The notes under the pieces were generated by a model. It had not been told where the DNA came from. It made no database searches and saw nothing but the letters and a program-made list of their open reading frames with translations. 62,586 bases of DNA from Deltaproteobacteria bacterium SM23_61 (GTDB lineage: Bacteria; Desulfobacterota; SM23-61). Positions 5,024-26,240 of this stretch are shown here, piece by piece. The first letter of the stretch is position 1; every line of letters starts with the position of its first letter. A program made the position numbers and the translations under genes. The DNA lies in the NCBI GenBank assembly GCA_001304105.1, contig LJUR01000002.1, positions 1-62,586 of the forward strand. Reading direction: 5' to 3'.

Positions 5024-5305
5024 AAGGATTTGTCTCCATTCCTTCCGGGATTAAAATTCATTATAACTCATTGTGCTTGCAATTTTCATTCCCAAAATAG
5101 GCGATTTTTTAATTTACCGGCCCCTTTCTTCTTCCTCCCGGGGCTTCATTCCCCTAGAAAAGCCTTCTTGAACAAGGTCACTCAACCCCGAAATCGTCCC
5201 CGGGGCACTGCGTATAACTTGCGCTCGGGGATAAAATCCCGTAATTTAAAATAAAGGAATTCCTCTTTTCTACGAGCCGGAGTTTTTGCCCCCCATGGAG
5301 GAAGG

Positions 5306-7987
5306 ATGAATTGTTACCAGCTGGACGATCGGGAAATATTGCAGATATTTGACACTTCGGAATCGGGACTGACCGAGGAAGAAGCCGGCCAACGGCTGCG
5401 TCGGTACGGCCCCAACCGGCTGGCCGAAGAAGAGAAAATCAGCCGAGTGAAGGTCTTCTTGCATCAGTTCGCCAGCCCGCTGATCTACATTCTCCTGCTG
5501 GCTGCCGTCGTAACCCTTCTTTTGCGGGAATACGTGGATGCGGGGGTGATCCTCTCCGTTCTGATCCTCAACGCGGTGATCGGGTATTTGCAGGAGTTCA
5601 AGGCCGAAGAGAGCGTGCGGGCCTTGACGAAGATGATCATCCCCCAGGCACGGGTCTGGAGAGAAGGGAGAGAAAAGGAAATCCCCAGCGAAGAATTGGT
5701 CCCCGGCGACGTGGTGATCCTCGCCTCGGGGTCCAAGGTGCCCGCGGACATCCGCCTGCTCAGCGAAATCGATTTGAAGATCGATGAATCCATGCTCACC
5801 GGCGAATCGGTCCCGGTGGACAAAGATCCCGCCCCCCTCAAGGTTGAAAACTTATCCCCCGGCGATCAGCTCAACATGGCCTTCATGGGCACGATTGTGG
5901 TAAGCGGGCGGGGGCGGGGGATTGTGGTGGCCACCGGAGGGCAAACCTCCCTGGGAGGGATCGCCCGGGAGGTCCGGGAAGCGCAGGTCGCCACGACTCC
6001 CCTGCAGGAAAAATTCCATCGTTTTTCCAACCGCATCGGCCTGGTGGTGCTGGGGGCTGCGGTGATCCTGGTGGTCATCGGCGTTCTCATCGGAGAACCC
6101 CTCAAGGATATGTTCATGACCGCCGTGGCCGCCGCCGTGGCCACCATTCCGGAAGGGCTTCCTGTCGTGCTCACCATCGCCCTGGCCGCCGGAATCCGGC
6201 GGATGGCCCGGAAAAATGCCATTATCCGCCAGCTCCCCGCGGTGGAAACCCTGGGAAGCACCACGGTCATCTGCACCGACAAAACCGGAACGCTTACCCA
6301 GAATGAGATGACCGTGAAAGTGGTCTTCGACGGCGAGCATGTCTTCAATCTGACCGGAACCGGGTATTCCCCCGAAGGGGAAATCCTCCACGAATGGGTG
6401 CCTGCCTCGGAAAAGGAGCGCAAACAGCTTTTCATGGCCCTGCGAATCGGTCTCCTCTGTAACGAATCCACCCTCTACCGGGACAACGGGGAATACCGGG
6501 TCAACGGGGACCCGACGGAGGGCGCCCTGATCGCCGCCGCCATGAAGGGCGGGCTCCGGCCGGAAGGAGAGAGAGAAGAATACCGGCAAATCGGCCTGCT
6601 TCCTTTTGAATCCGATTATGGCTACATGGCCACTCTTCACCTCCAGGGCGGGAAAAAATGGATCTTCGTGAAGGGCGGGCTGGAAAAAATGCTGGACCTG
6701 TGCACCAGCTGCCTGGCCACGGAGGAAATCAGGATTCAGGAGATCCTGGAGACTTCCAACCGGTTCGCCCGGGAGGGCATGCGGGTGTTGGCCATGGCCT
6801 ACAAGGAAGCTCCGGCAGACCTGGAGCTCCTGCGCCACCAGGAGGTGGAAGGGAATTTGATTCTGGCCGGGATTCAGGGGATGATCGATCCTCCCCGCCC
6901 CGAGGTGAAGGAGGCCATTCAAGGCTCCCGGCAAGCGGGAATCCGGGTGGTCATGATCACCGGGGACCATCCCGCTACGGCCGTGGCCGTCGGAAAGACG
7001 CTGGGGATCTTCCATGATGAATCCGAGGTCCTGACCGGCAAGGATGTGGAGGGGATGAGCGACGAGGACTTATTCGCCCGCGTTTCCAGCGTCTCCGTGT
7101 ATGCCCGGGTGGCTCCTCATCACAAGCTGCGCATCGTCCAGCAGCTGATCAAACAGGGGGAGGTCGTGGCCGTGACCGGAGACGGGGTCAACGACGCCCC
7201 GGCCTTGAAGGCCGCCCATATCGGGGTGGCCATGGGCCGTAAGGGTACGGACGTGGCCAAGGAAGCTTCGGACATGGTCGTCACCGACGACAACTTCGCC
7301 GCCATCTTCAACGCCGTGGAGGAGGGACGGGTGGTTTTCGACAACATCCGCAAGGTCATTTTCTTCCTGATCCCCACCGGCGTGGCGGCCATCGGCTCGA
7401 TCATCGGGTCGATCCTTCTTGGCGTGCCCATTCCTTACACCCCCTCCCAGCTGTTGTGGATCAACCTGGTGACCAACGGTTTACAGGTCCTGGCCTTGAC
7501 CTTCGAGCCGGGGGAGAAGAATGTGATCTCCCGGCCGCCCAGGGATCCCCGGGAGGGAATCATGTCCCGGGTGCTGATCGAACGCACGGTCATCGTGGGG
7601 CTGCTCATCTCCGCCGGGGTGGTTTACAATTTCGTCAGCGAGCTGCGCGCCGGGGACACCCTGGAAAAGGCCCGGACCATGGCGGTCACCACGATGGTCT
7701 TCTTCCAATTTTTCCAATCCTGGAACAGCCGCTCGGAGGCCGAGTCCATCTTCCGCCTGAGCCCTTTCAGCAATCCTTTTCTCCTGTATGGATTGCTGGC
7801 TTCTATCCTGGCCCACCTGGCCTCCATCTATTTTCTTCCCTTTCAGTGGGTCCTGCGGACGGAACCGCTCAGCCTGGCCGAGTGGTCCAAAATCGCGGTC
7901 ATGTCCCTCACCGTGATTCTGGTGGTGGAGATCGACAAAGCAATCCGGAAAAAAGGGAATCTTTCCAGGACAGGCCCGCCCCGATGA
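5306..7987 (+). CDS. P-type cation-transporting ATPase (type II, Ca2+/Mg2+-ATPase-like)
   Basis: TGES, ICTDKTGTLT (phosphorylation site), MITGDH and VTGDGVNDAPAL motifs, about 10 predicted TM segments, 893 aa. Confidence 0.95.
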   Translation: MNCYQLDDREILQIFDTSESGLTEEEAGQRLRRYGPNRLAEEEKISRVKVFLHQFASPLIYILLLAAVVTLLLREYVDAGVILSVLILNAVIGYLQEFKAEESVRALTKMIIPQARVWREGREKEIPSEELVPGDVVILASGSKVPADIRLLSEIDLKIDESMLTGESVPVDKDPAPLKVENLSPGDQLNMAFMGTIVVSGRGRGIVVATGGQTSLGGIAREVREAQVATTPLQEKFHRFSNRIGLVVLGAAVILVVIGVLIGEPLKDMFMTAVAAAVATIPEGLPVVLTIALAAGIRRMARKNAIIRQLPAVETLGSTTVICTDKTGTLTQNEMTVKVVFDGEHVFNLTGTGYSPEGEILHEWVPASEKERKQLFMALRIGLLCNESTLYRDNGEYRVNGDPTEGALIAAAMKGGLRPEGEREEYRQIGLLPFESDYGYMATLHLQGGKKWIFVKGGLEKMLDLCTSCLATEEIRIQEILETSNRFAREGMRVLAMAYKEAPADLELLRHQEVEGNLILAGIQGMIDPPRPEVKEAIQGSRQAGIRVVMITGDHPATAVAVGKTLGIFHDESEVLTGKDVEGMSDEDLFARVSSVSVYARVAPHHKLRIVQQLIKQGEVVAVTGDGVNDAPALKAAHIGVAMGRKGTDVAKEASDMVVTDDNFAAIFNAVEEGRVVFDNIRKVIFFLIPTGVAAIGSIIGSILLGVPIPYTPSQLLWINLVTNGLQVLALTFEPGEKNVISRPPRDPREGIMSRVLIERTVIVGLLISAGVVYNFVSELRAGDTLEKARTMAVTTMVFFQFFQSWNSRSEAESIFRLSPFSNPFLLYGLLASILAHLASIYFLPFQWVLRTEPLSLAEWSKIAVMSLTVILVVEIDKAIRKKGNLSRTGPPR

Positions 7988-8144
7988 AAGAATCGCTTCC
8001 CTAGTGTCGTGTCACGGAAATAAGCTCCTAAATTCGATCCCTGGTGCCGGGAGCCGAGAGTCGGACCGCTTCCCGCCTCGGCGGGACAAAATAGACGCTG
8101 ATTCCTCCCAAGCCCACGGAGATTTTACAATGTATATTGCCAAT

Positions 8145-8172
8145 GTAGGGGCGATTCATGAATCGCCCCTAC
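8145..8172. repeat. 28-nt perfect palindrome GTAGGGGCGATTCA/TGAATCGCCCCTAC
   Basis: Read directly from the sequence. It lies 158 nt downstream of the ATPase stop and is a possible REP-type element or transcript-stabilising hairpin. Confidence 0.8.
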
Positions 8173-8517
8173 TTACGAAGGCATAGCCTCTTAGCCCCGC
8201 TTCTTTTGCGGAATCCCTGAGATGCGGTGGAAGAAGACTTCCCTCCCGCCGGATTTTGGCGGCGCGCATCCTTCCGACCCTCGGCTCCAGGTGAAATTTT
8301 ATGTCCATTATTTTGGGGAAACGACACTGGGATGAGGGTCCGAATTCCTTCCGCCTGAACCCCATTGGCCGCCTCTTCTTTGTCTTTGGTTTCTCGCGGC
8401 CACGAATTTTTTCCGCAAGAAGTTCGGGGACACGGCTGGGCATATACTTGACAAAGGCAGATAATTACCTGACAATGGCTTTGATTCCTAACCCCGGGCC
8501 AAAGGAAGGCTCTGGAG

Positions 8518-9447
8518 ATGATTCAGACTGACCTGCATCCACAAGTGGAGGCCGTGCGCCGCTTCAACCGGTTCTACACCAAACAGATCGGTTTGTTGCA
8601 CGAGAAGGTATTGAGAAGCCCCTTCTCCCTGACCGAAGCACGGATCCTCTATGAGCTCGCCCACCAGGGACAAACAACGGCCTCCGGATTGGCCAAAGAG
8701 CTGGGGTTGGATGGGGGTTATCTGAGCCGCATCTTGGGGGAATTTGGAAAACGGGGGCTCCTGGCCAAACAGCCCTCCGAGACCGATGGGCGGATGAGCC
8801 TCTTGCAGTTGACGGAGAAAGGACGGAAAGCTTTTGCGACGATCGACGGACGGTCGCGGAGACAAATAGAGGCAGTGCTGAAGGGATTGGCCACGGCTGA
8901 CCAAAACCGTTTGGTGGAGGCGATGAATACCATCGGCGGCCTGCTCGGCGCCCGGCCCGAACAAAAGGTTCCCTATGTGCTCCGGCCGCATCGCCCCGGC
9001 GATATGGGCTGGGTCGTCCAACGACATGCCGTGCTTTACACCGAGGAATACGGCTGGGATGAGCAATTCGAGGCTCTGGTGGCGGGCATCGTAGCGAATA
9101 TCATTCAGCGCTACGATCCGAAGAGGGAACGGTGCTGGATAGCGGAAAGAGAAGGGGAGAGGGTCGGGTCTGTGGTCCTCGTCAGGAAATCAAAAACGAC
9201 CGCGAAACTGCGCCTGTTGCTGGTCGAGCCGAAGGCACGCGGGCTGGGCATCGGCACCCGTCTGGTTCAGGAATGCTCGCTTTTTGCCAGGCAGGCGGGG
9301 TACCGGAAGATCGTGCTTTGGACCAACAGCGTGCTTCATGCCGCCCGCCGGATATACCAGGCGGCGGGGTACCGCTTGATCCGGGAAGAGCCTCACCATA
9401 GCTTTGGTCACGATTTGATCGGTGAAACATGGGAACTCAAGCTGTGA
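8518..9447 (+). CDS. MarR-type HTH regulator fused to a GNAT N-acetyltransferase
   Basis: The N-terminal part is MarR-like (LTEARILYELAHQGQTTASGLAKELGLDGGYLSRIL). The C-terminal part has the GNAT motif LLVEPKARGLGIGTRLV. Confidence 0.9.
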   Translation: MIQTDLHPQVEAVRRFNRFYTKQIGLLHEKVLRSPFSLTEARILYELAHQGQTTASGLAKELGLDGGYLSRILGEFGKRGLLAKQPSETDGRMSLLQLTEKGRKAFATIDGRSRRQIEAVLKGLATADQNRLVEAMNTIGGLLGARPEQKVPYVLRPHRPGDMGWVVQRHAVLYTEEYGWDEQFEALVAGIVANIIQRYDPKRERCWIAEREGERVGSVVLVRKSKTTAKLRLLLVEPKARGLGIGTRLVQECSLFARQAGYRKIVLWTNSVLHAARRIYQAAGYRLIREEPHHSFGHDLIGETWELKL

Positions 9448-9519
9448 ACCCCCTCCGGGAAAAGGCCGGGCGGTATGGAGGCCGTGGGCCTCGCCGCTTG
9501 AGCCTTTCCTGAAGCAGGT

Positions 9520-10413
9520 ATGGAAACCCGGCAATCTTCCATAACAGACTTCATGCCCATGGCCGCCGGGGCAGCCTCCGGCATTCTGGTCGGATCGGCC
9601 ATGGTGGCCACCCGCTTTGTCATTGACCAGACCCATCCCGCCTCGCTGGCGCTCTGGCGATACCTCATCGGCTTCTGCTGCCTGCTCCCGCCGGTACTCC
9701 TCTCGCCCCGCGTGCGGATGGAACGGCGGGATTTACTGCCCATCGGTTTGCTGGGAATCACCCAGTTCGGCATCCTGATCGCCCTCCTCAATTACGCCCT
9801 GCAATTCATCCCCTCGGCCCGCGCGGCGCTGATTTTTGCCACCCTGCCCCTTCTGACCATGATCCTGGCGTCATCGCTCGGCCGGGAACACCTCACCCTG
9901 GCAAAGACCCTGGGGGTCTTTGCGACCATCATCGGGGTGGGGTTCGCGCTGGGGGAAAAAGCAGTTCAATGGGGCGGCGGGGCCCATCAGTGGGTCGGTG
10001 AGCTGGCCGTGCTGGCGAGCGCTCTGTGCGGTGCCGTCTGCAGCGTCTTTTACCGGCCTTACCTGCAGAAATATCCGACCCTGCCGGTCAGCGCCCTGGC
10101 CATGCTCGCCTCGGTGGGGTTCCTCGCGGTGCTCGCCGCCGGGGAAGGGTTCTTTACCTCCCTGCCCCGCTTCACTCCCGGCGGCTGGTTCTGCGTCCTC
10201 TTTATCGGGGTGAACAGCGGCATCGGCTACTACCTCTGGCTGTGGGCATTGAACCACACCACGCCGACGAAGGTAACCGTCTTCTTGGCGCTCAGCCCCC
10301 TTACCGCAGCGGGATTGGGGGTACTCTTTCTTGCCGAGATGGTGTCGGCGATGTTTTTCCTGGGACTTGGCTTCGTGACCCTCGGACTGTGGCTCACCCA
10401 GAAGCGGAATTGA
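9520..10413 (+). CDS. EamA/DMT-superfamily transporter
   Basis: About 10 TM helices arranged as two EamA-like repeats. The last 87 nt (plus one following base) are duplicated at 17611-17698. Confidence 0.9.
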   Translation: METRQSSITDFMPMAAGAASGILVGSAMVATRFVIDQTHPASLALWRYLIGFCCLLPPVLLSPRVRMERRDLLPIGLLGITQFGILIALLNYALQFIPSARAALIFATLPLLTMILASSLGREHLTLAKTLGVFATIIGVGFALGEKAVQWGGGAHQWVGELAVLASALCGAVCSVFYRPYLQKYPTLPVSALAMLASVGFLAVLAAGEGFFTSLPRFTPGGWFCVLFIGVNSGIGYYLWLWALNHTTPTKVTVFLALSPLTAAGLGVLFLAEMVSAMFFLGLGFVTLGLWLTQKRN

Positions 10414-10414
10414 A
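10327..10414 (+). repeat. Direct repeat copy 1 (88 bp, eamA 3' end), attL-like
   Basis: Identical base for base to 17611-17698. Confidence 0.95.
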
Positions 10415-10693
10415 GTTCCAGGATCTTCTCCGAATTCGTTGATCGAATATTTTGTGAAAGCTTGGCATCACTTGACATTATGAGAATATCAGATCTTTGA
10501 TCCTCAACGGATTCGAAGATGATCCCAATCTCAAGATCGCAAGCCTGACCCTTTTCCCGTTGATCGCCCATTGGCAACTTGTAGATCCTTAACTATTAAC
10601 TATTCACCGCCAACCCATTATGATCCGGGCTGAAACGAAGCGAGGTATGGCTTTAGGGGACGATAACTTAATGGGAAAGGAGGGTTCGGGCAG

Positions 10694-11667
10694 ATGGGAA
10701 CGAGAAAGAACTGTTGGCAGGCTTTAGCGACTGTCCTGGGGATGGCCCTTCTGATTTTAGCTTCTCCGGCCTTATCCGAGTACCCGGACAAGCCGATCAC
10801 CATCTACTGCGTCTACGGCCCCGCGGCTAGCACGGATGTCTCCTCCAGGTCTTTGGCCAGCGGGTTGGAGAAGATGTGGGGGGTTCCCGTGGTCGTGGAG
10901 AACAAGCCGGGCGGGGGAACTACGGTATGCGCCGGGCTGGTGGCGAGCAAGAAGCCCGACGGGTACACCCTGGGAACGATCAGCGAAGGAGCCCTGACCG
11001 CCAGTCCCCCCTCCAGAAACTCGCCTACGATCCGCTCAAGGATTTTTCCTTCCTGACTCAGTACGCCACCTACTTCGGGGCCTTCGTCGTGCGCAGCGAT
11101 TCTCCGTGGAAGACCGTGGATAAATTTATCGCCCATGCCAAAGCCCATCCCGGAATGTCCTACACCTCGACGGGCATGTACACCCCGCAGCAGATCAGCG
11201 CCGAGCTTCTAGCGCTGTGCAAGGGTCTCACCTGCCGACATGTGCCCACCAAAGGGGGCACCGACGCCAGCACCATGCTCATGGGCGGTCACGCGGACTT
11301 CTCCACCGGCTCCAGCCAGGGCGTTTACGTGCGACAAGGGGTCTTCCGCCTTCTCCTTCAGGTCAACGCGGAGAAACGCCATCCCTCTTTTGCCGACGTG
11401 CCGGCGCTGAAGGAGATCGGCTGCCCCGAGCTGCCCTCCGCGGCGATCGATGTGATTGCCCCCAAGGGTTTGCCCCCGGCCATTAGCAAAAAGCTGGGCG
11501 AGGCGATCCGCAAAGTAGCCCTGGAGGCCCTTTTCCAGAAAGTCCTGGCTAACTTCGACGTCCCCTACGATTACCTCGACCAGGAAGGCCTCGAGAAGAA
11601 GGTAAGGCCCCAATACGAGTGGTTTAAAGTGTACTTGACCAAGGCGGGGATCAAGACGATCAAATAA
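10694..11667 (+). pseudogene. Tripartite tricarboxylate transporter substrate-binding protein (TctC/Bug family), frameshifted
   Basis: The N-terminal part is in ORF 10694..11056 (signal peptide, YPDKPITI..., VVENKPGGGT). The rest is in ORF 10876..11667 (LQKLAYDPLKDF...). The frames switch at a C6 run (11006-11011), and one extra C would restore ...ALTASPPLQKLAYDP.... Confidence 0.85.
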
Positions 11668-11953
11668 GGGTCCCGGGCCTACGAAAGCAAGGTCATTAAA
11701 AAAGACAGGCTGGAAATTCACACCGCCCGATGATTTGTTTTACGGCATAGGATTGTGGAGAATTAGAAGACGGAGGCATTGGGGCGTTTCGACTTCTGCC
11801 CTCTTCAGATCTTGCTCAGAAGATCGAAAGGTTTGTCAACCTAGCAAACAACGTCTGCAAGAGGCCCACTTCTTTGCCTGAATCTCGAACCTGTGCCATT
11901 GCCCTCACCATTCATTCAGAAACGCCATCTGCATCCCTTTTAAAAAAAGTGAC

Positions 11954-14179
11954 CTAGCGAGGCGGATTCTTGCTGACATCTTCGATATTTAACCCTTCTG
12001 TGTACTTAGAAATATCTTCTCCTCTCAATTTTTTTTGAATCAAATCTGGACGATAAAACGCGTCATAAAACTGATTATCATCGTAAACCTCCAATTTTTT
12101 AACAAAGTGGATATTTTTTTTAAAATTACCGGTGCCGGCAAAGTAACCTTCCGGGCTTAAAATAAGCGAAGATTCCTTATCAATTGCGATAAATTTCGCA
12201 ATGGATTTTTTAGGCGATATTTTATTCAACTCAATCTCAGAATAAGTGCTTGTTAAAAGATATTCATCATTCTCCGAATAACTCAGTGATCTTACTTCGC
12301 TATTATGCTTTGCAATCAATTCAACCTTATTTTTTTTTAATTCCCATACCCAAACGTTCCCCAGCGTATCCCCAAAGCCCAAATATTTTCCATCGGAAGA
12401 ATATCGAAAAGTCTTGCTCACCATACTCCCTGATCCATGTACCCGCTTTATATTTGCAGGCATTTCAAAGCTAGCAATAGGCTTCCAATCAACAATTCTC
12501 ATTATCTTTATATTCATACGCGAATCTGCATATGCACAATTCTCACCGTCATGTGAGAAGTCAAATGCATGCCCATTAACTTTTATCTTTTCAACAACTC
12601 CCTTAATATTCAAATTCCATACATATATGTCATTCAACATCGTCACTGCAGCCAAGTACACTCCATTACTCGAAATACGAAGGGATTCAACGCTTCCATC
12701 AAGCTCATATTCCCACATAATCGACCCATTGATAAGATTGAGCGACCCTATATAAGCTTTATAAGATCCGCCAAGTTTGCCATAAATTACCTTTGCATAT
12801 ATTAGCTCGGGAGATTTAGGGTGAAAAATAATCTCTCCAACATCCCCCTTTTCGATATTAAAAATACGGATACTCTCTGTATCCAAATCCCATATCATAA
12901 TGGTCCCTTCTTTACTTGCTGAGCTTAAAAAGCGCCCTTTTTGCATTAAAGCGATAGAACTGATAACATCTTTTTGGCCTTTCAATATCTTTTCTATTTT
13001 TCCGTTCTCTCTGTTCCAAATAAATATATAATTGAAATATTTTCCTTCTTCATCCTTTTCCTCCCCAATCATCGATGTAAAGAAAAATTTATTAATGGGA
13101 GAGTGAAGAGAATTAATTACAATAGTGTCTAGCTTGCCTCCCAAGGTTCTAATTAATTTAAGGTTATCAGCCTTCAGTAGCTCAATTCTATTCGATCCTG
13201 CTCCGGCTAATATTTTTCCGTCAGGGGAAAAGGCCAAATGTGTATACCACCAAAATTTTATCGGTTTAATAGCTCTAATCATTTTCCCCGATTTTACCTC
13301 CCAAACCGCCCCTCCTTCCAATTCTTCTGACCCCCTCGAAATGTATACATCGTTTTTCGAAAAAGAAAGTGGTTTATCCCCCAGTAAATAATATCTTTTG
13401 CCCTCCAAATTAGAAACAAGTTTATTTTCTATCAAATCCCATATTTTTATATTACGATCCATCCCTGTGGAAGCGACATATTTTTTATTATGGGAAAAAC
13501 AAATTTCCTCCACCCCGCTGTCGATGGGATTATTGTTAGGTTTAGCTTTATAATGGCGAAATTCTCTCAATACGATTCCGTTATTAAGATCACGAATTTG
13601 CAATAATCCATTGGAATATCCTATTCCCAGCAATTTACCGTCGCTCGAAAATCTGACGCATGAGATTCCTTGTGCTTTTGTATCTATTATAGATATGATT
13701 TTTTTATTTAAATCATATACACTGATCTTATATTGATCGGTACGCGCGGCAACCCAATTCCTGGCAGGCGAGAAATCTATTATCTTTTGTGGATTTGCAG
13801 CATAAATGTAAGTTGGAAATAGATTCCTTTTTATTAAATTATTGTCCACAATAGGTCGGATATTTAGGGCTGTAAATCCAAGGTCTGCCCGAGTTAAAGA
13901 TGCGAGATTCTTATCATCATTTGCAAACCTTACAAAGTACACTTCACCGGGTTCTTTTGTCGTATTCAGAATCCTGCCGGTCGCTGCATCCCATATTATT
14001 ATATTCCCAACATTATCCGCGGACGCAATTAATTTGCTGTTTGAAGAGAAAGCGACCGATGTAATAAGATTTTCCTCATGTCCCTGCTGATAGACTAATC
14101 TTATAGAGTCATCCGGATAAATGGGCGGCGATAGAAAGAGAATGGATATTGCCATGATAAATATTCGTATTAATACCAT
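11954..14179 (-). CDS. Secreted WD40/beta-propeller repeat protein (741 aa)
   Basis: N-terminal signal peptide, then many WD-like units (e.g. SVAFSSNSKLIASADNVGNIIIWD, CVRFSSDGKLLGIGYSNGLLQIRD). Lies in the ~33% GC block. Confidence 0.85.
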   Translation of the reverse strand: MVLIRIFIMAISILFLSPPIYPDDSIRLVYQQGHEENLITSVAFSSNSKLIASADNVGNIIIWDAATGRILNTTKEPGEVYFVRFANDDKNLASLTRADLGFTALNIRPIVDNNLIKRNLFPTYIYAANPQKIIDFSPARNWVAARTDQYKISVYDLNKKIISIIDTKAQGISCVRFSSDGKLLGIGYSNGLLQIRDLNNGIVLREFRHYKAKPNNNPIDSGVEEICFSHNKKYVASTGMDRNIKIWDLIENKLVSNLEGKRYYLLGDKPLSFSKNDVYISRGSEELEGGAVWEVKSGKMIRAIKPIKFWWYTHLAFSPDGKILAGAGSNRIELLKADNLKLIRTLGGKLDTIVINSLHSPINKFFFTSMIGEEKDEEGKYFNYIFIWNRENGKIEKILKGQKDVISSIALMQKGRFLSSASKEGTIMIWDLDTESIRIFNIEKGDVGEIIFHPKSPELIYAKVIYGKLGGSYKAYIGSLNLINGSIMWEYELDGSVESLRISSNGVYLAAVTMLNDIYVWNLNIKGVVEKIKVNGHAFDFSHDGENCAYADSRMNIKIMRIVDWKPIASFEMPANIKRVHGSGSMVSKTFRYSSDGKYLGFGDTLGNVWVWELKKNKVELIAKHNSEVRSLSYSENDEYLLTSTYSEIELNKISPKKSIAKFIAIDKESSLILSPEGYFAGTGNFKKNIHFVKKLEVYDDNQFYDAFYRPDLIQKKLRGEDISKYTEGLNIEDVSKNPPR

Positions 14180-15503
14180 TCCTGATCCCTCCTTTTTTAG
14201 ATAATGGAGATTTTAGGTTTGGCAAAGATGCTCTAAGCATCTTTCCCGATAGGTATCCATTTTTTATTTCTCCCCACCAAAGATGTTGCAATATTTTGCG
14301 GTAGGCATTGGATAGCTTAACCAACTGCAAGTTTGCTTAGAAAGCGATTCCTGATCGAGATTTCCTTGCTTTAATCTAATGGGCCGATTCTCGAGAATCT
14401 AGTTACGCAGGATTTTGACGTCTAGGCCCGCATAGGCTGGGGGAATGAAATGCCCTCAGACTACTCGACTCAATATTAGAAATAAATAGTCCTTGTCTTG
14501 TTTCAATAGATCAATATCTCGGAAAAAGTTAAATTTTTTCAAAATTTATCATCCCGGCGATAGCCAGAATCCTATTATTTCAAGGTATTCTGAACCCCTA
14601 CTTTCACCGCGGGAACCCCTTCAGAGTCTCCCTATCCATAATGCAAATATTCAATTTAAATGCTTTTCTCTGCAAGGATTGAATGAAATCGGGATGGCCA
14701 GGTCAATATAAGATACAGTTGCTCAGCAAACCTGCAGTTACTCCTGATTTCCACCATGTTTTCAATATTTACGCTGTGGAATTGCCGAGAATAAAAGGTT
14801 TTCTTTATATATTTTTTATAGATTTCCCCAAAAATTGATCCTGGGGCATTTCTGACCGACCCCCGCTAAATTGAGCGTAAGCTGATAGGTTTTTTCCCTT
14901 GTTTCTCGAGATCGTGGCTTCCGGAGGTGTTTCCGCTCGATTACCTGGAATTGGCCAATGGTATTCTTAGATTTTTTCGCGGCTTTTTGCAGGTGCGCAG
15001 ACTTATCAGCTATCTCTTCCCTCAAAATCCATCGCGCCGGATGCACCTTAGCCATAGTCAGATAGCTCTGCAGGGCAAAAATCCCTTCTTGTACAAGCCT
15101 TTTCCTTTACGCCTGCCCCATTGGCAGGGCCTTAGTCCCGCCTCATGAAAGAGGCATCAAGGCCAGAATCATCCTGGACAATAACCCTCTTATTTGACAA
15201 TATGCCTCAGCCCCTTTTGCCGATAAAGCAATTACCCATATTAAGATAGATTCCTCCCGTGATATTGCTGATATATTATACAATCTTGACATGATCAAAG
15301 TCTTTTCGATTGAGATTAAAACCAGGCAGGACCTCGCAAGAGAAGATCGCCAGGATTCCAAAAACTGTCCTTGGCACCATGATATAAACTTAAAAATCAG
15401 GGCAGGTTATTGAGCAAGGAAGCCTCTTATCAGGAACTCTCGCCTGATTCTTCTTTGATGAAGATGCTTTTGAGGCTCTAGTATAGATCGCATAATAGTA
15501 AAT

Positions 15504-15812
15504 TTACTTTTTAGATACACTTTCAATAAATAGTTTTAATTTTGCAGGATCATTTAAGATTTCTTTGGCATATTCTCTAGGCAATTCATAAGAAATTTGC
15601 TTTTTTGACTGTGTTAATTTGCCTTCAGATTTTAAATCAATCGGTATCTTTTTATTTGGGTTAAGAGAAGCTTCATAGTTGATGTTTCCATTACTATCAA
15701 TTTCGCTTATGATGAAAATAGTCACTAAATCACCCTTGTCTTTATGTGAATATACGGCGCAACCAATATTACAAAAAAATATTAAGATAATAATAAAAAT
15801 TATATTTTTCAT
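15504..15812 (-). CDS. Small hypothetical lipoprotein
   Basis: MKNIIFIIILIFFCNIGC signal peptide/lipobox. The ATG at 15812 is preferred over the upstream TTG. AT-rich. Confidence 0.55.
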   Translation of the reverse strand: MKNIIFIIILIFFCNIGCAVYSHKDKGDLVTIFIISEIDSNGNINYEASLNPNKKIPIDLKSEGKLTQSKKQISYELPREYAKEILNDPAKLKLFIESVSKK

Positions 15813-15847
15813 TAAAAAACCTAAAGCTCTCCGCAAGTTAGTATAAA

Positions 15848-17026
15848 TTAATTCCGATTTATAAGTATCTTAGCAGCTTCAGTGCTATTCTTTTCAATAG
15901 CGATATCTAATGCGGTTTTCCCTTCTAAGAGCGAGCCCGTGTTTCCCCCGTTATTTATGATCATTTCTAAAATAGCCGCCAAATCATAATAAGCCGCTAA
16001 ATGAATCGGAGCGATGCCACTTTCTGTTCTTGCATTTAAATCTATACCCTTTTCAATTAATGTTTCGACCAACATGATGTCTTTGAGTAAAATAGCAGCG
16101 TGCAATGGGAAAAAACTTTCATCTAAATCTATTTTATATTTATCTTCTTTGCCTAATAAATCCCTTTTATCACGAGTGAATTCTGCAAAATGAGTCAACT
16201 TTATGAACAAATTATTAGAATTACTTTCCCATTCAATTTTTTCGGAAATCACTCTTGTTTTTTCATAGAACCGTATATCATTTTTTAATTCAACCTTAGA
16301 ACCGTTTTTATGATAAACCCAATCAGATTTTTTATGGTTTTTATCATTTTCGCTGCGCAACCTATCGTATTGTAAACATTTTGATGCTCGATATAGCCAT
16401 TTTTGTGAAAGTTGATAATCCGAAACAGAAGATTTTCCAAACCATTTAGAAGCTTCGCCGAAATTTTGATTTAAACCAATGCCTTGAAAATAGCAGGAAC
16501 CTAGAACGAAAAAAGCATTAGGGTATTCAGACTTTGCGGATTTCAATAAATATTGAGCACCTTTTTTAAAATTCTGTTTTACTCCAACTCCCTTCAAGTA
16601 TAAAACCCCTATATTGTATTGAGATTTCTTATCTCCCTTCTCAGCTGATTTTTCAAACCAGTGAGCTGCCTCCTGATAGCTTTGAGTAACTCCCCACCCC
16701 TGAATATACATACAGGCTAAATTATATTGAGCCTTGATATTTCCATTTTCAGAAGAACGTTTTAACCAATAAGCAGCCTCGGAATAATCTTGCTTAAACC
16801 CTTTGCCGGTTAAATACATTGTTCCAAGGTTAAATTGCGCTTCGGAATCTTCAAGTGCAGCTTTCCTCAATAAAATTCCTTTAGGTGATTTACCATTGTA
16901 AATTGTTGCTGAGCCATAATGAGATATTTTATAACCCTCTTTTCCTAACGAATTGCAGCTTATGCAAAAGGAAATGTGAAGGAGTAATAATTGGTAAAAA
17001 AAATATTTATTGAAAAATAAAAACAT
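15848..17026 (-). CDS. Sel1-like (TPR-type) repeat plus ankyrin-repeat protein, probably exported
   Basis: At least 4 Sel1 units (AQFNLGTMYLTGKGFKQDYSEAAYWLKRSSENG...). The C-terminus has ankyrin units (PLHAAILLKDIMLVETLIEKGIDLNARTESGIAPIHLAAYY...GKTALDIAIEKN). The start is taken at the internal Met preceding a hydrophobic signal-like stretch; the ORF extends to 17140. Confidence 0.8.
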   Translation of the reverse strand: MFLFFNKYFFYQLLLLHISFCISCNSLGKEGYKISHYGSATIYNGKSPKGILLRKAALEDSEAQFNLGTMYLTGKGFKQDYSEAAYWLKRSSENGNIKAQYNLACMYIQGWGVTQSYQEAAHWFEKSAEKGDKKSQYNIGVLYLKGVGVKQNFKKGAQYLLKSAKSEYPNAFFVLGSCYFQGIGLNQNFGEASKWFGKSSVSDYQLSQKWLYRASKCLQYDRLRSENDKNHKKSDWVYHKNGSKVELKNDIRFYEKTRVISEKIEWESNSNNLFIKLTHFAEFTRDKRDLLGKEDKYKIDLDESFFPLHAAILLKDIMLVETLIEKGIDLNARTESGIAPIHLAAYYDLAAILEMIINNGGNTGSLLEGKTALDIAIEKNSTEAAKILINRN

Positions 17027-17307
17027 AATTTTGTCCAAAGTTCTGTGAAAAAATGCATCAATAGGAAGACAGGGAAAATTTATTGATAATAAATCGCTTT
17101 GGAATGAGTTGAATATACAAAAAAGGGGATTGTGTGTCAAGAGAATTTAAAGAAAACTTAAATGCAAATTTAAATACAAATACAATTTAAATTCAAAATG
17201 GGGCGGGCGATATCGGGCAGTAACGAATTTCTTCAATGAATCAGAAAGCGGTTCTTTGGTCCGAGGCAGCAGCCCGGGAACTCCGAATCCAAGTTGCTGG
17301 AACCGAC

Positions 17308-17600
17308 GGCGGAGGACTTTCTTGAGGTGTTCTGCGCCTTGTACGGAATAAAAAAGAGGAACTTCCCAGGTCTGAGAGGGTCCGATTCAAGGAACGCAGA
17401 AATGTTGTGCTTTACTTGAGCCGGAGATAACTTATGACACCCTGAACTAGGTAGGCATCTTATTTCGGATGAACCGATATAGCTCTGCCACCAGCGCGAT
17501 AGGTCGGGCGAAAAATCAAATGGAGGAGAGATAGGCGGATGCAAAAGTGCATCCAGAAAATCATGGACGACCCCTCTGAGGGTCAAAGGTAAACCTTACC
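17308..17600. repeat. Repeat element A, homologous to 25970-26240 and partly to 27612-27670; abuts the right-hand 88-bp repeat
   Basis: Aligned by eye. For example, cttatttcggatgaaccgatatagctctgcc...gcatccagaaaatca in A matches cttatttcagatgaatcgatatagctttgcg...gcatccagaaaatca in B, at about 75% identity. Confidence 0.7.
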
Positions 17601-17610
17601 CCTTTTTCTG

Positions 17611-17698
17611 TTTCTTGCCGAGATGGTGTCGGCGATGTTTTTCCTGGGACTTGGCTTCGTGACCCTCGGACTGTGGCTCACCCAGAAGCGGAATTGAA
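17611..17698 (+). repeat. Direct repeat copy 2 (88 bp; orphan eamA 3' fragment), attR-like
   Basis: Identical to 10327-10414, including the eamA stop codon. Confidence 0.95.
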
Positions 17699-17725
17699 AT
17701 GGGAAGGCCGGAGTCAAACACTTTA

Positions 17726-18994
17726 TTAAAAAAATTTATCCCGCCGATCACTCCCCCCCTGCAAGGCTGTGCGCACGGGAGGCTTGATGATCAAGGAGAG
17801 AAAAACAGAAATAGACACCATTCCCGCGCTCAGGGCAAAGGGAACGAAATAGGTTCCGGTCACATCCTTAAGAAACCCCCCGGCATAGGGGCCGGCGAAA
17901 CCCGCGAGGCCGAATGCGGTAAAAAGGAGCCCATAGTTCGTTCCTTGCGATTTTCCCCCGAAAAAAGCCAGGCAGGTTGCCGGGAATAGGGTGAAGATCC
18001 CGCCGTAATTCCAGCCGATCACCGCGGCGGCCATCCACAATTGCCAGTAGTTTGAGCCCGCCGGGTACAGGAGCAGCAGAGCGCCGGCCTGGATTCCGAA
18101 ATAGGAAAGGAATAGAGCCCGGGTTCCGAGTCGATCGACAAACAGGCCGGTGACGATCCTGGTGACCGCGTTGCAACCCGCCAAGGCGCTGACGGCCCAG
18201 CCCGCTTGCATCGCCGTGAGTCCTGAATCCAATCCGTGTCCGGCAATATGGCCGATTACCACGAGCCCCCCAAAAGAGGCTGAAAAATAACTTATGTACA
18301 AGAGCCAAAATTGAATCGTCCGGATACTTTCGGCAAAAGTGTAATCCCCGAGGGTGCTCCCTCCCGCATGAGGTTTCGGCGGATCCCAACCCCGGGGGCT
18401 CCACCCCTTGGGTGGATTTCCCAAGGTCAGGGATGACAGGATGGCCATGATCCCCATGGCAATGCCCACGTACCAAAAGACATACCTCCAACCCAGGGTT
18501 TCAATCATCGCCGTGGCCAAAGGCCCCATGACAAAGGATCCCAGACCCAAGCCCACAACCGCGCAGCCAGTTGCAAATGCTCTTCGATCGGGCCACCATT
18601 TGGGCGCAGTGGCAATGGGCGGAAGGTAAATCATTCCTCCCCCGATCCCGGCAATGACCCCGTAACTCACGTACAGCCAGGCTTTAGAGTCTGTAAAACC
18701 CGCCAGAAAAAAACCGATTCCCAGGATGATTCCGCCGAGGAATACAATGATTCGGGCCCCATATCGATCGCTCAAGCGCCCTGCCGGATAGCTCACCAGG
18801 GCAAAAATCAGGATGCAGATTCCGTAGGCCATGGCAATCTCGGCGCGACTCCATCCGAAGGTCTGGTTCAAGGGCTTGATGAATACACTCCACGCATAGA
18901 GCAATAAACCGCAGGTCGTGCTGCTGAACATGCCTCCGAGCAAAGGAAGCCATCGGGGTGTGGGCGCAAGATGGGTTTTTTCAGCTTCTGCCAT
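17726..18994 (-). CDS. MFS transporter, oxalate/formate antiporter (OFA)-like
   Basis: 12 TM helices. N-terminal pattern [12 protein letters not shown]...[11 protein letters not shown]...[10 protein letters not shown] is typical of OFA-family MFS proteins. Confidence 0.85.
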
Positions 18995-19345
18995 TTCTCG
19001 AGAATCCTTCCCCTGGGGACCACCGCTCTCCTATTTTCTTTATGTATTCCCCATGCATACAATCCTCTCCCTTCCTAAAATGCCCCCCAGCTTCGCAGCG
19101 CACTTTGCATATTTCTCCACACTTTGAATAATTTTACCCGATCACCGATGCAACGGAAACAGATTTATAGGGGGTCTAAGAAATAGGGGCTACGTTTGAC
19201 ATTCATGAGAATTTTTGATCGCGTGAGATTGTTTATAAACCCTTGCGCATAGAGTATCCTCATGCTTGGTATGAGGTGATGAACCGGGGGCGGCGCGGTA
19301 GCTTTGACCCCTTTCCCGAATGACCTCATAATTCTATTTTTTTGA

Positions 19346-20698
19346 TTATTCTAGGGTGAACACCTGTGGCTGATCCAGTTTCGTATTCAGGATTTCTAGG
19401 GCGCGCTGGATATATTTTTTCCGTAATTTTTTTTCCTTCTCACGGTCCAATTTGGTGTCCCCCAGGACGCTTGTCACATTGATTCCTTGCAGAATTCGGT
19501 TGACTCCTATCATTTTGCTCACCGAGGGAACGGCTGTGATATTGACTACTGGAAGCCCCACTCCTTCAATTTCTGATGCGATCGTTGCCCCGCAACGAGT
19601 ACTCGATCCTCAGGTCGAGGTGAGAATGACACCTCCTACCTTCGTGCTCTTCAGATCCTGGGCCATTTCTCTTCCTATTCTTTCGCACACACTGGCCGTA
19701 TTGGCATTGCCCGAGGTTGAATAAATAAAGGGATGAAGCTTGCCGACTAAGCCTTCCTTCTCCAGGTCCCGCATGGCATCGACGGGTACCAAGCGGTTGG
19801 GGTTTCCCAGCACGTGCAAAGGATAGTAGCCTGTATGCACGACTTCATAGTTTTCGGCCGAATAATTCTGGGGCAGAAATTGATCAATTTCATATTTGGA
19901 CCAAACTACATTACCCCTTCCCCGAAAACCATCCGGGTTTCCCTTCCATGTCAATCCTCCATCACTAATCAAAGCAATCTCGGCTTTGGTCAAATCCGCA
20001 ATGGGAGAAGGAGGGGGAATGGCTCTTTCCTTCACCTTTCCTGCCTCGGTTAGAAACGGTTTCCCCTGAATTTTGGCCAGCAGCATGTCAACGCCGCGGG
20101 CGGCGGCGGTTTTTTCCGTAAACTCATTCTTCAAGAGCCCTCTGGGGAAATAATCCCCTTCTTCCGGCCTGATGATGTTCTCCCCGGAAATCAGCCGAGT
20201 CCCTCTCTCCGGGGAAAGAATATGAAACGCCAGGTTTACCATCTTGGTCAAATCCTCGGCCATTTTGGCTGCGCTTTTTCCAGTGCGGCAAATGTAGACA
20301 TCTCGACGATATAATTCCACTCCCGGATTCTCGACAAACATGCCCGTGATCGCCGGAATAGCGAGCCTCTCCTGGACCTTCCTGCAAATTGCCCCGCAGG
20401 ATAAACCGTATCTTCCCGCTTCAAAAGCCGGGCCAGCGAAAAAGAGTTCCGGGGTGAAGGACGCGGCGAGCCTGACTCCATCTTCTGCTGCCTTTTCCAA
20501 ATTATCAGCAAAATAGTTGTCTCCGCAAATAATCGTACCAACGACTTCCCCCTTCTCTCCCAGAATTTTCTGCAAGGCCATTCCAGGGCCTACCGGGCCT
20601 TTTTTTACCATGAAGGGCAAATCCGCCTTCTCCTCTTGTCCCACCTGACCGAAAAACTGATTCAGGTAGTGGACAACCTTCAATTTGCTCGGAGTCAT
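19346..20698 (-). CDS. GrdB/GrdF/GrdH/PrdB-family selenoprotein B (reductase component B), with Sec encoded by TGA at 19610-19612
   Basis: ORFs 19610..20698 and 19346..19561 are in the same frame and separated only by the TGA. Read-through gives GGVILTST-U-GSSTRCGATIASEIEGVGLPVV, which is the family's Sec-site signature. Confidence 0.9.
19583..19597 (-). promoter_or_regulatory. SECIS-like hairpin for the GrdB-family gene
   Basis: The RNA reads CGUUGC-GGG-GCAACG and begins 12 nt after the UGA. Confidence 0.6.
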
Positions 20699-20727
20699 CT
20701 TTTTCCCCCTTTCGCTCAGGGCGGCAT

Positions 20728-22301: not shown

Positions 22302-22482
22302 GCTTGCAGGAAAGCGGGCATCATGGATTTCCGCCTCCATGATCTTAGGCATACCTACGCTTCGCATCCGGCCATGCTGGAAGTTCACAGCGCTTTAGGA
22401 ACTGTTTGGTTACAGGGCTCTGGCCATAACGCAGCGCCATTCCCACCCTGTGCCGGAGCAGTTACAGAACGCGGGGAAGTAA
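22302..22482 (+). pseudogene. C-terminal remnant of a tyrosine recombinase/integrase (frameshifted; N-terminal ~80% missing)
   Basis: KAGIMDFRLHDLRHTYAS (box II HDLRH) is followed, after a frameshift, by ITQRHSHPVPEQLQNAGK (compare MTxRYaHlxPexl). No catalytic N-terminal part is present. Confidence 0.7.
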
Positions 22483-22556
22483 GTGGATGGAGTGATTGGG
22501 GATAGGTAGGAAGCCTCCCTCTGTCTTTGCCCCGACATTCCCTCACAGTGGGAACA

Positions 22557-23225: not shown

Positions 23226-23376
23226 ATAGTTACCTCCCTATCAGGTTATTTTGTTAAAATCAGATATTCCAAGGCTTATCCTGAAAGTCATGTGGATGAT
23301 TTGAAGTCTTCCAGGGTCGGATCTTAACCTTGAAAAGCTCCCTAAAGAGCTTCATCTTCTCTTTCCCTACTTGCCA

Positions 23377-25969: not shown

Positions 25970-26240
25970 TCTTCTCGTTGAGAAACTTGGAGGAATCTTC
26001 AAGGAAGCGAAAACTCCCTGTATGGCCTTGGCTCTTATCCCCACCCGTGTCCATAGACTGCCCCCTTATTTCAGATGAATCGATATAGCTTTGCGAGCAG
26101 CGCGGTAGGCCGGCTGAAAGCTCAAATGGAGGGAAACCGGCAGACAAAAAAAGCGCATCCAGAAAATCACAGAAAATCTCAATAAGGGTCAAGCCCAGAC
26201 CTATAGGGGGCGAAAAGGGTAAGCCTTGCCGATGGGCGGA
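25970..26240. repeat. Repeat element B (homolog of 17308-17600)
   Basis: See element A. In addition, a 12-mer TCTTGCCGAGAT (26284-26295) is identical to the start of the 88-bp eamA repeat. Confidence 0.7.

What the first reader, a model, noticed from the sequence alone, without database searches (positions are those of the whole stretch)
10327..17698. 88-bp perfect direct repeat of the eamA 3' end brackets a 7.2-kb insertion with no recombinase
- 10327-10414 (the end of eamA including its stop) is repeated exactly at 17611-17698. This is the classic footprint of site-specific integration into a gene's 3' end, with the element supplying a replacement end.
- The bracketed DNA is itself composite. 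It holds a backbone-like-GC frameshifted tctC and a ~33% GC block encoding three exported proteins.
- No integrase or transposase is present, so the element looks immobilised, or mobilised in trans.
- The right end (17308-17600) is a sequence with homologs elsewhere in the window.
Basis: seen in the sequence. Interest (0 to 1): 0.7.

Follow-up and report, generated by a model that had tools for sequence, protein, structure and literature searches.

The report
Rearrangement scar beside a dead transposon
The duplicated tail of the eamA gene is real, but it is most likely the scar of a local reshuffling next to decayed hairpin-ended (TIRYT) transposon copies, not the footprint of an integrase-driven genomic island.

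Summary
Bases 10327-10414 equal 17611-17698 exactly (91 nt with one mismatch), 7,284 bp apart. Independent assemblies reproduce the whole structure, so it is not an artefact. Eight relatives at about 87-92% identity have eamA directly followed by the MFS gene.

The interpretation does not hold.
- The bracketed DNA contains the host's own tctC with about 140-190 bp of its native upstream DNA. In five relatives this gene lies on the far side of MFS.
- It also contains a 5.5-kb low-GC block with no close homologue.
- Its last 404 bp are the frameshifted C-terminal third of a TIRYT/"TIRtron" Y1 (HUH) transposase. Its right terminal inverted repeat ends 5 nt before repeat copy 2.
- A matching left inverted repeat plus the first ~21 codons of such a transposase lie just beyond MFS. 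A degenerate left repeat lies 35 nt after repeat copy 1.
- The only integrase trace is a pseudogene at 22310-22512, outside the repeats.

Best reading: a segmental duplication or translocation joined at the transposon end, followed by reciprocal loss. The 88-91 bp survived because it completes eamA. This is IS-associated remodelling, of modest interest. The exact order of events is inferred, not shown.

The parts
9520..10413 (+). eamA (EamA-family transporter), intact. Its last 29 codons lie in repeat copy 1.
   Evidence: Pfam PF00892, E 1e-37. 89% aa identity to L001 and L002.
10324..10414 (+). Repeat copy 1 (R1): 91 nt, of which 10327-10414 is exact. It is contiguous on its left with native eamA.
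10415..10449 (.). 35-nt filler of unknown origin between R1 and the degenerate left inverted repeat.
   Evidence: No significant match in relatives. Two short matches elsewhere in the window are at chance level (E 0.01).
10450..10503 (+). Degenerate TIRtron left inverted repeat (LE'): TTTTGTGAAAG..CTTGAC-ATTATGAGAAT. The terminal GGGG is lost.
   Evidence: The motif TTGACATT(N)ATGAGAAT occurs only at 10472-10487 and 19196-19212, with 0 expected by chance. The copy at 19196 aligns to the left end of a real TIRtron.
10505..11689 (+). Relocated native tctC. It comprises about 140-190 bp of its ancestral upstream region, the tctC pseudogene (10694-11667, with a 1-nt deletion near 11009) and about 23 nt downstream.
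   Evidence: 88% identical to L002 12782-13830, where it lies beyond MFS. Pfam TctC. Frameshift also in L132.
11690..11953 (.). 264-nt junction segment of unknown origin (46% GC).
   Evidence: Homology to relatives ends near 11690. No matches found.
11954..14179 (-). WD40-repeat protein gene (741 aa, 37% GC) with a hydrophobic N-terminus.
   Evidence: Pfam WD40 families. The best non-self homologue is only 26% identical.
14180..15503 (.). Non-coding stretch inside the low-GC block. It holds a 70-nt fragment (14543-14612, minus strand) of a MITE-like repeat that also occurs in native parts of the window.
15504..17140 (-). Two-gene unit of 27-33% GC: a Sel1/ankyrin-repeat protein (15848-17140 or 17026) and a small lipoprotein-like ORF (15504-15836). 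An AT-rich promoter-like site lies at 17112-17140.
   Evidence: Pfam Sel1 and Ank. N-termini. Promoter-like match 11 of 12.
17199..17602 (+). TIRYT (Y1 HUH + DnaA_C-like HTH) transposase pseudogene. Only the C-terminal third remains, with at least 3 frame changes. Its right terminal inverted repeat is at 17581-17602. The low-GC block cuts it at 17198/17199.
   Evidence: hmmsearch against a 120-member family profile: positions 203-318 of 326, 76 bits, E 2.7e-25. By eye the match extends back to about residue 195. nhmmer aligns 17290-17603 to element positions 721-1041 of 1042. Inverted repeats of real members.
17603..17607 (.). TTTTT between the transposon terminus and repeat copy 2.
17608..17698 (+). 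Repeat copy 2 (R2): an orphan eamA tail, contiguous on its right with the native eamA-MFS spacer.
17726..18994 (-). MFS transporter gene, the native convergent neighbour of eamA.
   Evidence: Pfam MFS_1. 91-93% aa identity to relatives.
19169..19301 (+). TIRtron left inverted repeat (GGGGGTCTAAG..CGTTTGAC) plus about the first 21 codons of a TIRYT gene (KPLRIEYPHAWYEVMNRGRRG), then truncated.
   Evidence: hmmsearch positions 3-23, E 5e-9. nhmmer aligns 19191-19297 to element positions 14-122. Adjacency confirmed in L157-L162.
22310..22512 (+). Tyrosine-integrase pseudogene fragment, outside the repeat-bracketed DNA. It is the orthologue of the remnant that abuts tctC in relatives.
   Evidence: tblastn 63% over 41 aa, E 8e-13. 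Pfam PF00589, E 1e-5, on the relatives' copy. Alignment.
26063..26207 (+). Second TIRYT C-terminal remnant with a degenerate right inverted repeat, downstream of a convergent alcohol-dehydrogenase-like gene.
   Evidence: hmmsearch positions 283-326, E 1.6e-12. 77% DNA identity to 17459-17586.

Best explanation
The 88-91-bp repeat is most likely the join-point scar of a local segmental duplication or translocation. It is not an attachment site.

**Ancestral order.** Relatives show eamA -> <- MFS, then tctC ->, then an integrase remnant.

**Changes in this lineage before the event (inferred).**
- TIRYT/TIRtron elements inserted on both sides of tctC and decayed. These are about 1-kb elements with a Y1-HUH transposase and hairpin-forming terminal inverted repeats.
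- A low-GC foreign block replaced the 5' two thirds of the right-hand copy.

**The event (inferred).** A recent duplication had two edges.
- Its right edge lay at the right inverted repeat of that decayed copy, at 17602 plus 5 T.
- Its left edge fell 91 nt before the eamA stop.
- This created the new joint transposon end | eamA tail (R2).
- The hairpin end may have been nicked by a transposase supplied in trans, or it may have stalled replication and provoked a template switch.

**Reciprocal loss (inferred).**
- The first copy lost MFS. That deletion stopped one base past the eamA stop codon, because anything further would have destroyed eamA.
- The second copy lost tctC and the low-GC block.

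**Net result.**
- tctC plus the foreign block has swapped sides with MFS.
- Only the eamA tail remains in two copies.
- An equivalent route is re-insertion, by recombination in the eamA tail, of a circle closed at the same joint.
- Today the structure is inert. tctC is frameshifted and all transposase copies are fragments.
- RecA recombination between the two 88-bp copies could still delete the 7.28 kb.

**Shown versus inferred.**
- Shown: the junction anatomy, the native origin of tctC, the identity of the transposon ends and the empty site.
- Inferred: the order of events and the cause of the joint.
For: - Five relatives have eamA-MFS-tctC, and three more partial loci have eamA-MFS. None has the low-GC block or a TIRYT at this site.
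- tctC in the window is orthologous, at 88% identity like its neighbours, and kept its own upstream DNA.
- 17199-17602 is a TIRYT C-terminal pseudogene.
- Alignment to a complete element puts the element terminus at 17602-17604, 4-6 nt from R2.
- Real family members have 30-34-nt terminal inverted repeats, GGGGTCAAGTCT..TTGAC, ending exactly there.
- R2-MFS-175 nt is flanked by a right end on its left and a left end plus the TIRYT N-terminus on its right. This is the permuted order expected at the junction of tandem units.
- An unrelated contig (L142) shows an old tandem array of [TIRtron + adjacent gene] with the same geometry.
- R1 and R2 are identical over 88 nt, while orthologues differ by about 10%. 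The transposon fragments are heavily decayed, so the duplication is recent and the transposon copies are older.
- R1 ends one base after the eamA stop, as expected if selection limited a deletion.
- The structure is reproduced in independent assemblies.
- The family is the published TIRYT/TIRtron class, subclass 2.1 with a Bac_DnaA_C-like domain and a GGGGWSAS repeat motif (PMC3733652, PMC6006769).
Against: - No intermediate arrangement was found. The history needs at least three events: one duplication and two deletions.
- No closely related strain is available to order the events.
- The 35 nt after R1, the 264 nt after tctC and most of the 175 nt upstream of MFS are unexplained.
- The left inverted repeat near R1 is degenerate and rests mainly on a shared 16-mer.
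- TIRYT mobility and cleavage have never been demonstrated experimentally, as far as I know. Any role for the transposase or the hairpin in making the joint is therefore conjecture.
- A single mismatch lies at the outer edge of the repeat. R2 carries the base seen in relatives and R1 does not. This fits a donor/recipient recombination at least as well as an in-situ duplication.
Confidence: 0.5

Rival explanations
1. Campbell-type insertion. A 7,284-bp circle (eamA tail + tctC + low-GC block + transposon end) arose in a variant chromosome that had already lost MFS. It then recombined through the 88-91-bp homology with a chromosome carrying eamA-MFS. This mechanism overlaps with the best explanation, because it needs the same first joint.
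For: - It gives exactly the observed topology.
- The variant base at the outer edge of R2 matches relatives, while R1 differs. This is as expected if the two tails came from slightly different alleles and the crossover lay to the right of that base.
- 88 bp is long enough for RecA recombination (general knowledge).
Against: - It needs two co-existing haplotypes, each lacking one gene, and none was found.
- The only contigs carrying the exact EamA protein have the filled site.
- No circle junction could be looked for, because reads are not available here.
Confidence: 0.2
2. An integrative island inserted by a tyrosine or serine integrase into the 3' end of eamA and carried a replacement tail. 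The integrase was later lost.
For: - Direct repeats of a gene's 3' end bracket DNA that is absent from relatives, and the upstream copy completes the gene.
- Part of the insert is compositionally foreign.
- An integrase pseudogene exists in the neighbourhood.
Against: - There is no integrase within the repeats.
- The nearby integrase fragment is orthologous to one already dead in relatives that lack the insert.
- The insert contains native tctC with its native upstream DNA.
- The right junction coincides with a transposon terminus rather than an island end.
- The low-GC block is embedded inside a truncated transposase gene.
Confidence: 0.1
3. True transposition. The DNA from the degenerate left inverted repeat (about 10450) to the right inverted repeat (17602) is a non-autonomous, cargo-carrying TIRtron moved in trans by a TIRYT. 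The eamA tail is a by-product of insertion.
For: - Left-type and right-type ends are in the correct relative orientation around the cargo.
- The right junction is at the exact terminus.
- TIRYT remnants are frequent in this clade.
Against: - The left repeat lacks the terminal GGGG and lies 35 nt from R1.
- Three real insertions of the family show no target duplication.
- IS200/IS605-type Y1 transposition makes none (general knowledge).
- No intact TIRYT is in the window.
Confidence: 0.1
4. Assembly artefact: a collapsed or mis-resolved 88-bp repeat, or a chimeric join between a low-GC organism and the host.
For: - The source is a metagenome-assembled genome.
- The GC content shifts sharply.
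Against: - Independent assemblies from several data sets give the same sequence.
- One contig whose name prefix (k141) suggests k = 141, longer than the repeat, crosses both copies without gaps.
- The low-GC block carries a fragment of the host's own MITE-like repeat.
Confidence: 0.03

Closest known systems
Genomic islands or integrative elements that target the 3' end of a gene or tRNA (tyrosine-integrase attL/attR)
   Same: - Direct repeats of the gene tail bracket the extra DNA.
- The upstream copy keeps the gene intact.
- Relatives have an empty site.
   Different: - No integrase lies inside.
- The cargo includes the host's own neighbouring gene.
- The right boundary is a transposon terminal repeat.
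- The nearby integrase fragment predates the event.
TIRYT/TIRtron elements (Di Nocera et al. 2013, PMC3733652; subclass 2.1 TnpA_REP-like Y1 HUH proteins with a Bac_DnaA_C-like domain, Quentin et al. 2018, PMC6006769)
   Same: - The fragments at 17199-17602, 19169-19301 and 26063-26207 match this family's protein profile.
- They carry its GGGG(T)CAAG...TTGAC hairpin-type terminal repeats.
- The right repeat overlaps the last codons, as in real members.
   Different: - Only fragments are present, and the catalytic HUH/Tyr domain is missing apart from about the first 21 residues.
- The repeats are degenerate.
- Nothing here shows activity.
Tandem duplication followed by reciprocal (random) loss, and remodelling of duplication join points in bacteria
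   Same: - Two adjacent blocks have swapped order without inversion.
- A short remnant of the duplicated unit survives at the new joint.
- Gene loss is complementary.
   Different: The full duplication was not observed. It is inferred from a 91-bp remnant and from the permuted transposon ends.
IS200/IS605 and RAYT/REPIN single-strand 'peel and paste' systems
   Same: - The same Y1 HUH transposase superfamily.
- Hairpin ends.
- No target duplication at three real insertions of the family examined.
   Different: - TIRYTs have true terminal inverted repeats and an extra HTH domain.
- Their mechanism is untested.

Membership tests
Integrase-mediated island at a gene 3' end | Direct repeats (att core) flank the insert, and the upstream copy completes the target gene | tested here: met
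Integrase-mediated island at a gene 3' end | A site-specific recombinase gene lies inside the insert, usually next to one att site | tested here: not met
   Pfam scans of all ORFs of at least 110 aa in 10415-17607 and a profile search of all six frames found only a Y1 transposase fragment. The integrase pseudogene lies at 22310-22512, outside the repeats.
Integrase-mediated island at a gene 3' end | The insert is a discrete foreign unit absent from relatives | tested here: not met
   The site is empty in eight relatives. However, tctC and its upstream DNA inside the insert are native and sit elsewhere in five relatives.
TIRYT/TIRtron | Y1 HUH transposase domain (PF01797) with a C-terminal HTH (Bac_DnaA_C-like) | tested here: inconclusive
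   - The C-terminal third matches the family profile at 76 bits, and the N-terminal 21 residues match at E 5e-9.
- Pfam Bac_DnaA_C on the repaired remnant gives only E 0.03.
- The catalytic core is deleted, so the fragments are remnants of members, not functional members.
TIRYT/TIRtron | Terminal inverted repeats with a GGGGWSAS-type motif flank the gene | tested here: met
   - Right end: GGTCAAAGGTAAACCTTACCCC (reverse complement GGGGTAAGG..).
- Left end at 19169: GGGGGTCTAAG..CGTTTGAC.
- Both align to the ends of L142, L151 and L152.
- Each departs from the published consensus by one position or indel (PMC3733652).
TIRYT/TIRtron | Mobility: several identical copies or insertion polymorphism | not testable with these tools
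   Only remnants are in the window, and the rest of the genome is not available. Remnants at other positions in relatives L056 and L039 hint at past activity.
Tandem-duplication join point with reciprocal loss | A novel joint places the downstream end of a segment next to its upstream start | tested here: met
   The transposon right end, which by inference lay downstream of tctC, now abuts the eamA tail that lies upstream of MFS.
Tandem-duplication join point with reciprocal loss | Two copies of the unit, or intermediates with both copies of MFS and tctC | tested here: not met
   Only 91 bp is duplicated. No intermediate appears in the assemblies that carry this population.

The most novel reading that the evidence does not exclude
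The DNA between the degenerate left repeat (about 10450) and the right repeat (17602) would be a cargo-carrying, non-autonomous TIRtron. A TIRYT supplied in trans would have moved it, or joined it at its hairpin end. The cargo is a host transporter-receptor gene plus eukaryote-like WD40 and Sel1/ankyrin exported proteins. That would be the first sequence-level evidence that TIRYT ends mobilise or rearrange kilobases of genes. Until now they have been linked only to short repeats. It would also show that such events can regenerate the tail of the gene they interrupt.
Probability: 0.12. Interest if true: 0.6.

Novelty: new member of a known kind. Interest (0 to 1): 0.3.

Why it matters
- **A caution for island-calling.** A perfect direct repeat of a gene tail around compositionally foreign DNA looks like an integrase footprint. 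Here comparison with relatives shows a reshuffled native neighbourhood, with transposon ends at the joints.
- **A lead on TIRYT elements.** The locus is a concrete place to ask whether TIRYT hairpin ends, whose activity has never been demonstrated, promote duplications or translocations of flanking genes.
- **Biological content.** The low-GC block encodes eukaryote-like repeat proteins in a free-living sediment deltaproteobacterium. This is mildly curious, and its donor is unknown.

Tried and rejected
- **Exact-protein look-ups.** The 297-aa EamA and the 422-aa MFS found nothing because of different start calls. The 284-aa EamA call worked.
- **Homologue search with the repaired transposase remnant.** It found nothing through the word index. 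tblastn against plasmids also found nothing.
- **How the transposase family was reached.**
  - I used a composite query written from memory.
  - The link to the window rests only on the later profile and DNA alignments to the real proteins and elements returned.
- **A GGTA target site for the family.** Rejected, because the left flanks of three real insertions differ.
- **A second copy of the tctC-proximal intergenic region after the N-terminal transposase fragment (19303-19345).** The score is suggestive against one relative (0 of 300 shuffles). The segment is too diverged to be a product of the recent duplication, so I treat it as unexplained.
- **A 15-mer shared between the MFS upstream region and the relatives' tctC downstream region.** Weak (7-13 of 500 shuffles). 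The true orthologue of that region is at 22390-22512.
- **Large tandem duplication in which both left repeats are recent copies.** Rejected, because the two left repeats are far more diverged than R1 and R2.
- **Rfam and promoter/terminator scans.** They added nothing on the repeat itself.
- **Terminal repeats or target duplications around the low-GC block.** No convincing ones were found.

Full report
**The observation**

A repeat search over 9000-19500 returns one long direct repeat, 10324-10414 and 17608-17698. It is 91 nt with a single mismatch at its third base. A self-BLAST of the region against the whole window finds no other copy. Copy 1 (R1) is the last 29 codons, the stop and one more base of an EamA-family ORF, 9520-10413. 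Copy 2 (R2) is an orphan tail. It runs straight into the short spacer and the convergent MFS gene, 17726-18994.

**Source and reality of the structure**

The WD40 protein inside the insert is 100% identical to a protein of the MAG 'Deltaproteobacteria bacterium SM23_61', whose longest contig has the length of this window. The same protein occurs on eight further contigs from ENA, JGI and Logan assemblies.
- L132 (contig name prefix k141) is colinear with window 8593-18723 at 99.89% without gaps. It crosses both repeat copies, and each copy keeps its own variant base.
- L133 and L135 cross the right junction. L141 crosses the left junction.
- L157-L162 cover 17981-24698.

An assembly artefact is therefore very unlikely.

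**Empty site and the native order**

A scan of species-representative genomes with EamA, and of metagenome contigs with MFS, returned relatives at 87-92% protein identity.
- In L001, L002 and L052-L057, eamA is followed directly by MFS, with one copy of the repeat sequence.
- In L002, L052, L053, L054 and L057, the next gene beyond MFS is tctC.
- Window 10643-11689 is 88% identical to that tctC. This is the same divergence as for eamA (84-86%) and MFS (87-90%).
- The similarity continues about 140-190 bp upstream of tctC, into what is the MFS-tctC intergenic region in relatives.

So the 'backbone-like' tctC inside the insert is the host's own gene, carried with its upstream DNA to the other side of MFS. 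Its frameshift is a single missing T near 11009, also present in the independent contig L132.

**The right end is a transposase remnant**

Read by eye, 17199-17590 translates, with several frame changes, into a sequence resembling the C-terminus of Y1 transposases fused to a DnaA-C-like helix-turn-helix.
- Direct searches with the repaired remnant failed, and Pfam and NCBIfam gave only weak DnaA-C hits.
- A composite query written from memory retrieved thousands of real 326-aa proteins carrying PF01797 plus PF08299.
- A profile built from 120 of them matches the remnant over positions 203-318 (76 bits, E 2.7e-25). It matches the second remnant at 26063-26201 over positions 283-326.
- The literature names this class TIRYT/TIRtron: Y1 HUH proteins flanked by terminal inverted repeats with a GGGGWSAS motif, many with a Bac_DnaA_C-like domain (PMC3733652, PMC6006769).

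**Element ends**

Three real members (L142, L151, L152) are about 1.04-kb units with 30-34-nt terminal inverted repeats, GGGGTCAAGTCT..TTGAC. The right repeat overlaps the last codons. No target duplication is evident.
- DNA alignment of the L142 element to the window places element positions 721-1041 of 1042 on 17290-17603. The right terminus is therefore at 17602-17604. Only TTTTT separates it from R2.
At 19169-19301, just beyond MFS and on the same strand, lie a left inverted repeat (GGGGGTCTAAG..CGTTTGAC) and about the first 21 codons of a TIRYT (KPLRIEYPHAWYEVMNRGRRG; profile positions 3-23, E 5e-9; element positions 14-122).
- The inner 16-mer of that left repeat, TTGACATT(N)ATGAGAAT, occurs at only one other place in the window: 10472-10487, 58 nt after R1, with none expected by chance. 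Around it is a degenerate version of the same hairpin architecture.

R2-MFS is thus bracketed by a right end on its left and a left end on its right. The 7.2 kb is bracketed by a degenerate left end near R1 and a right end at R2.

**The low-GC block**

Region 11954-17198 is 27-42% GC, against 55-63% for its neighbours.
- It encodes a WD40 protein, a Sel1/ankyrin protein and a small lipoprotein-like ORF, all with hydrophobic N-termini.
- The WD40 protein has no homologue above 26% identity.
- The block cuts the TIRYT gene at about residue 195 (17198/17199).
- Its internal non-coding stretch carries a fragment of a MITE-like repeat that also occurs in native parts of the window and in relatives. 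The block has therefore been resident for some time.

**Integrase**

No integrase lies between the repeats. Relatives carry the last ~45 residues of a tyrosine recombinase directly after tctC (Pfam PF00589, E 1e-5). The window has the orthologous, slightly longer and equally dead fragment at 22310-22512. It is separated from MFS by the left repeat with the TIRYT N-terminus and by grdB and grdE. This fixes the ancestral order as eamA-MFS-tctC-integrase remnant. It also shows that the integrase trace predates the event and is unrelated to the repeat.

**Interpretation**

- The topology fits any single-crossover or duplication model as well as it fits site-specific integration: R1 completes eamA, and R2 stays with the old downstream flank.
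- Three features argue against an integrative island: the native tctC inside the insert, the absence of a recombinase, and the coincidence of the right junction with a transposon terminus.
- R1 and R2 are identical over 88 nt, while orthologues differ by about 10%. The TIRYT fragments carry several frame changes, and the two left repeats are strongly diverged. The duplication of the tail is therefore recent, and the transposon copies are older and distinct.
- The simplest history I can build has three steps.
  1. **Before the event.** The order was eamA-R-MFS-[left repeat, TIRYT N-terminus]-[35 nt, degenerate left repeat]-tctC-low-GC block-[TIRYT C-terminus, right repeat]-grdB.
  2. **Duplication.** A duplication ran from 91 nt before the eamA stop to the right repeat, giving the joint right repeat|R2.
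  3. **Reciprocal loss.** MFS was lost from the first copy and tctC plus the low-GC block from the second.
- The deletion in the first copy could not enter eamA. This explains why the repeat ends one base after the stop codon.
- An old tandem array of [TIRtron + adjacent gene] in an unrelated contig shows the same right end|gene tail geometry.
- Re-insertion of a circle closed at the same joint gives the same product. It is favoured slightly by the variant base at the edge of R2.
- Whether the joint was made by a TIRYT acting in trans or by replication trouble at the hairpin cannot be decided here.

**Limits**

- No intermediate and no empty-site or circle contig from this population was found.
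- Several short segments remain unexplained: 10415-10449, 11690-11953, and most of 18995-19168.
- TIRYT activity has not been demonstrated experimentally, to my knowledge.

**Verdict**

The integrative-island reading is not supported. The feature is best filed as an IS-associated rearrangement scar in a plastic region that also holds a foreign low-GC block. Interest is modest.

Noticed in passing
window 19346-20698 (-), SECIS-like hit at 19572-19609 (-): grdB is a selenoprotein gene. The apparent stop at 19610-19612 is UGA. It is followed by a SECIS_4-like hit (30 bits, below the gathering score of 38) and 87 more in-frame codons down to 19346. ORF lists therefore truncate it.
   Followed up: partly
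window 22310-22512 (+); L002 about 13900-14060; L053 (reversed) about 4500-4660: A tyrosine-integrase pseudogene fragment. Its orthologue in relatives directly abuts tctC, which marks an older integration or rearrangement boundary shared by the clade.
   Followed up: yes
window 26063-26207 (+): A second TIRYT C-terminal remnant with a degenerate right inverted repeat. It lies between a gene for an exported DUF2059-like protein (24950-25948) and the 3' end of a convergent alcohol-dehydrogenase-like gene (26303-27424). The geometry matches that at R2/MFS.
   Followed up: partly
window 52384-52518, 55267-55321, 57730-57805, 62541-62571, 14543-14612 (-); L056 4223-4358; L128 2404-2551: A MITE-like palindromic repeat of about 140 nt (..GGATTCCGGCTTCCGCCGGAATGACG..) scattered in the window and in relatives. 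One fragment lies inside the low-GC block.
   Followed up: partly
L142 1-5678: Tandem units of [TIRtron + GAF/SpoIIE phosphatase gene] at 71-78% identity with a period of about 2.6 kb. A right inverted repeat precedes each gene tail. This suggests that TIRtron-linked tandem duplication of neighbouring genes recurs.
   Followed up: partly
L056 4375-4527; L039 2-655 and 3041-3304: TIRYT fragments near the GNAT/MarR-eamA pair in other lineages. In L039 one lies next to a 5'-truncated eamA homologue.
   Followed up: no
window 5147-8371 versus L002 7723-8852: The P-type cation ATPase gene (5306-7987) is absent from the syntenic position in the closest long relative. This is another indel in the same neighbourhood.
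   Followed up: no
window 19015-34584 versus L002 13830-17789: About 15.5 kb in the window holds the grd genes, RraA-like, metallo-beta-lactamase-fold and alcohol-dehydrogenase-like genes, among others. It occupies the place of about 4 kb in L002 (acyl-CoA synthetase-like and radical-SAM/B12 genes). Conserved synteny resumes at window 34584.
   Followed up: partly
window 8518-10413 and 47 other loci (L001-L050): The GNAT/MarR fusion gene and eamA form a pair found at 55-90% identity across many phyla (Methylomirabilota, Chloroflexota, Alphaproteobacteria and others). This suggests the two-gene module spreads horizontally.
   Followed up: no
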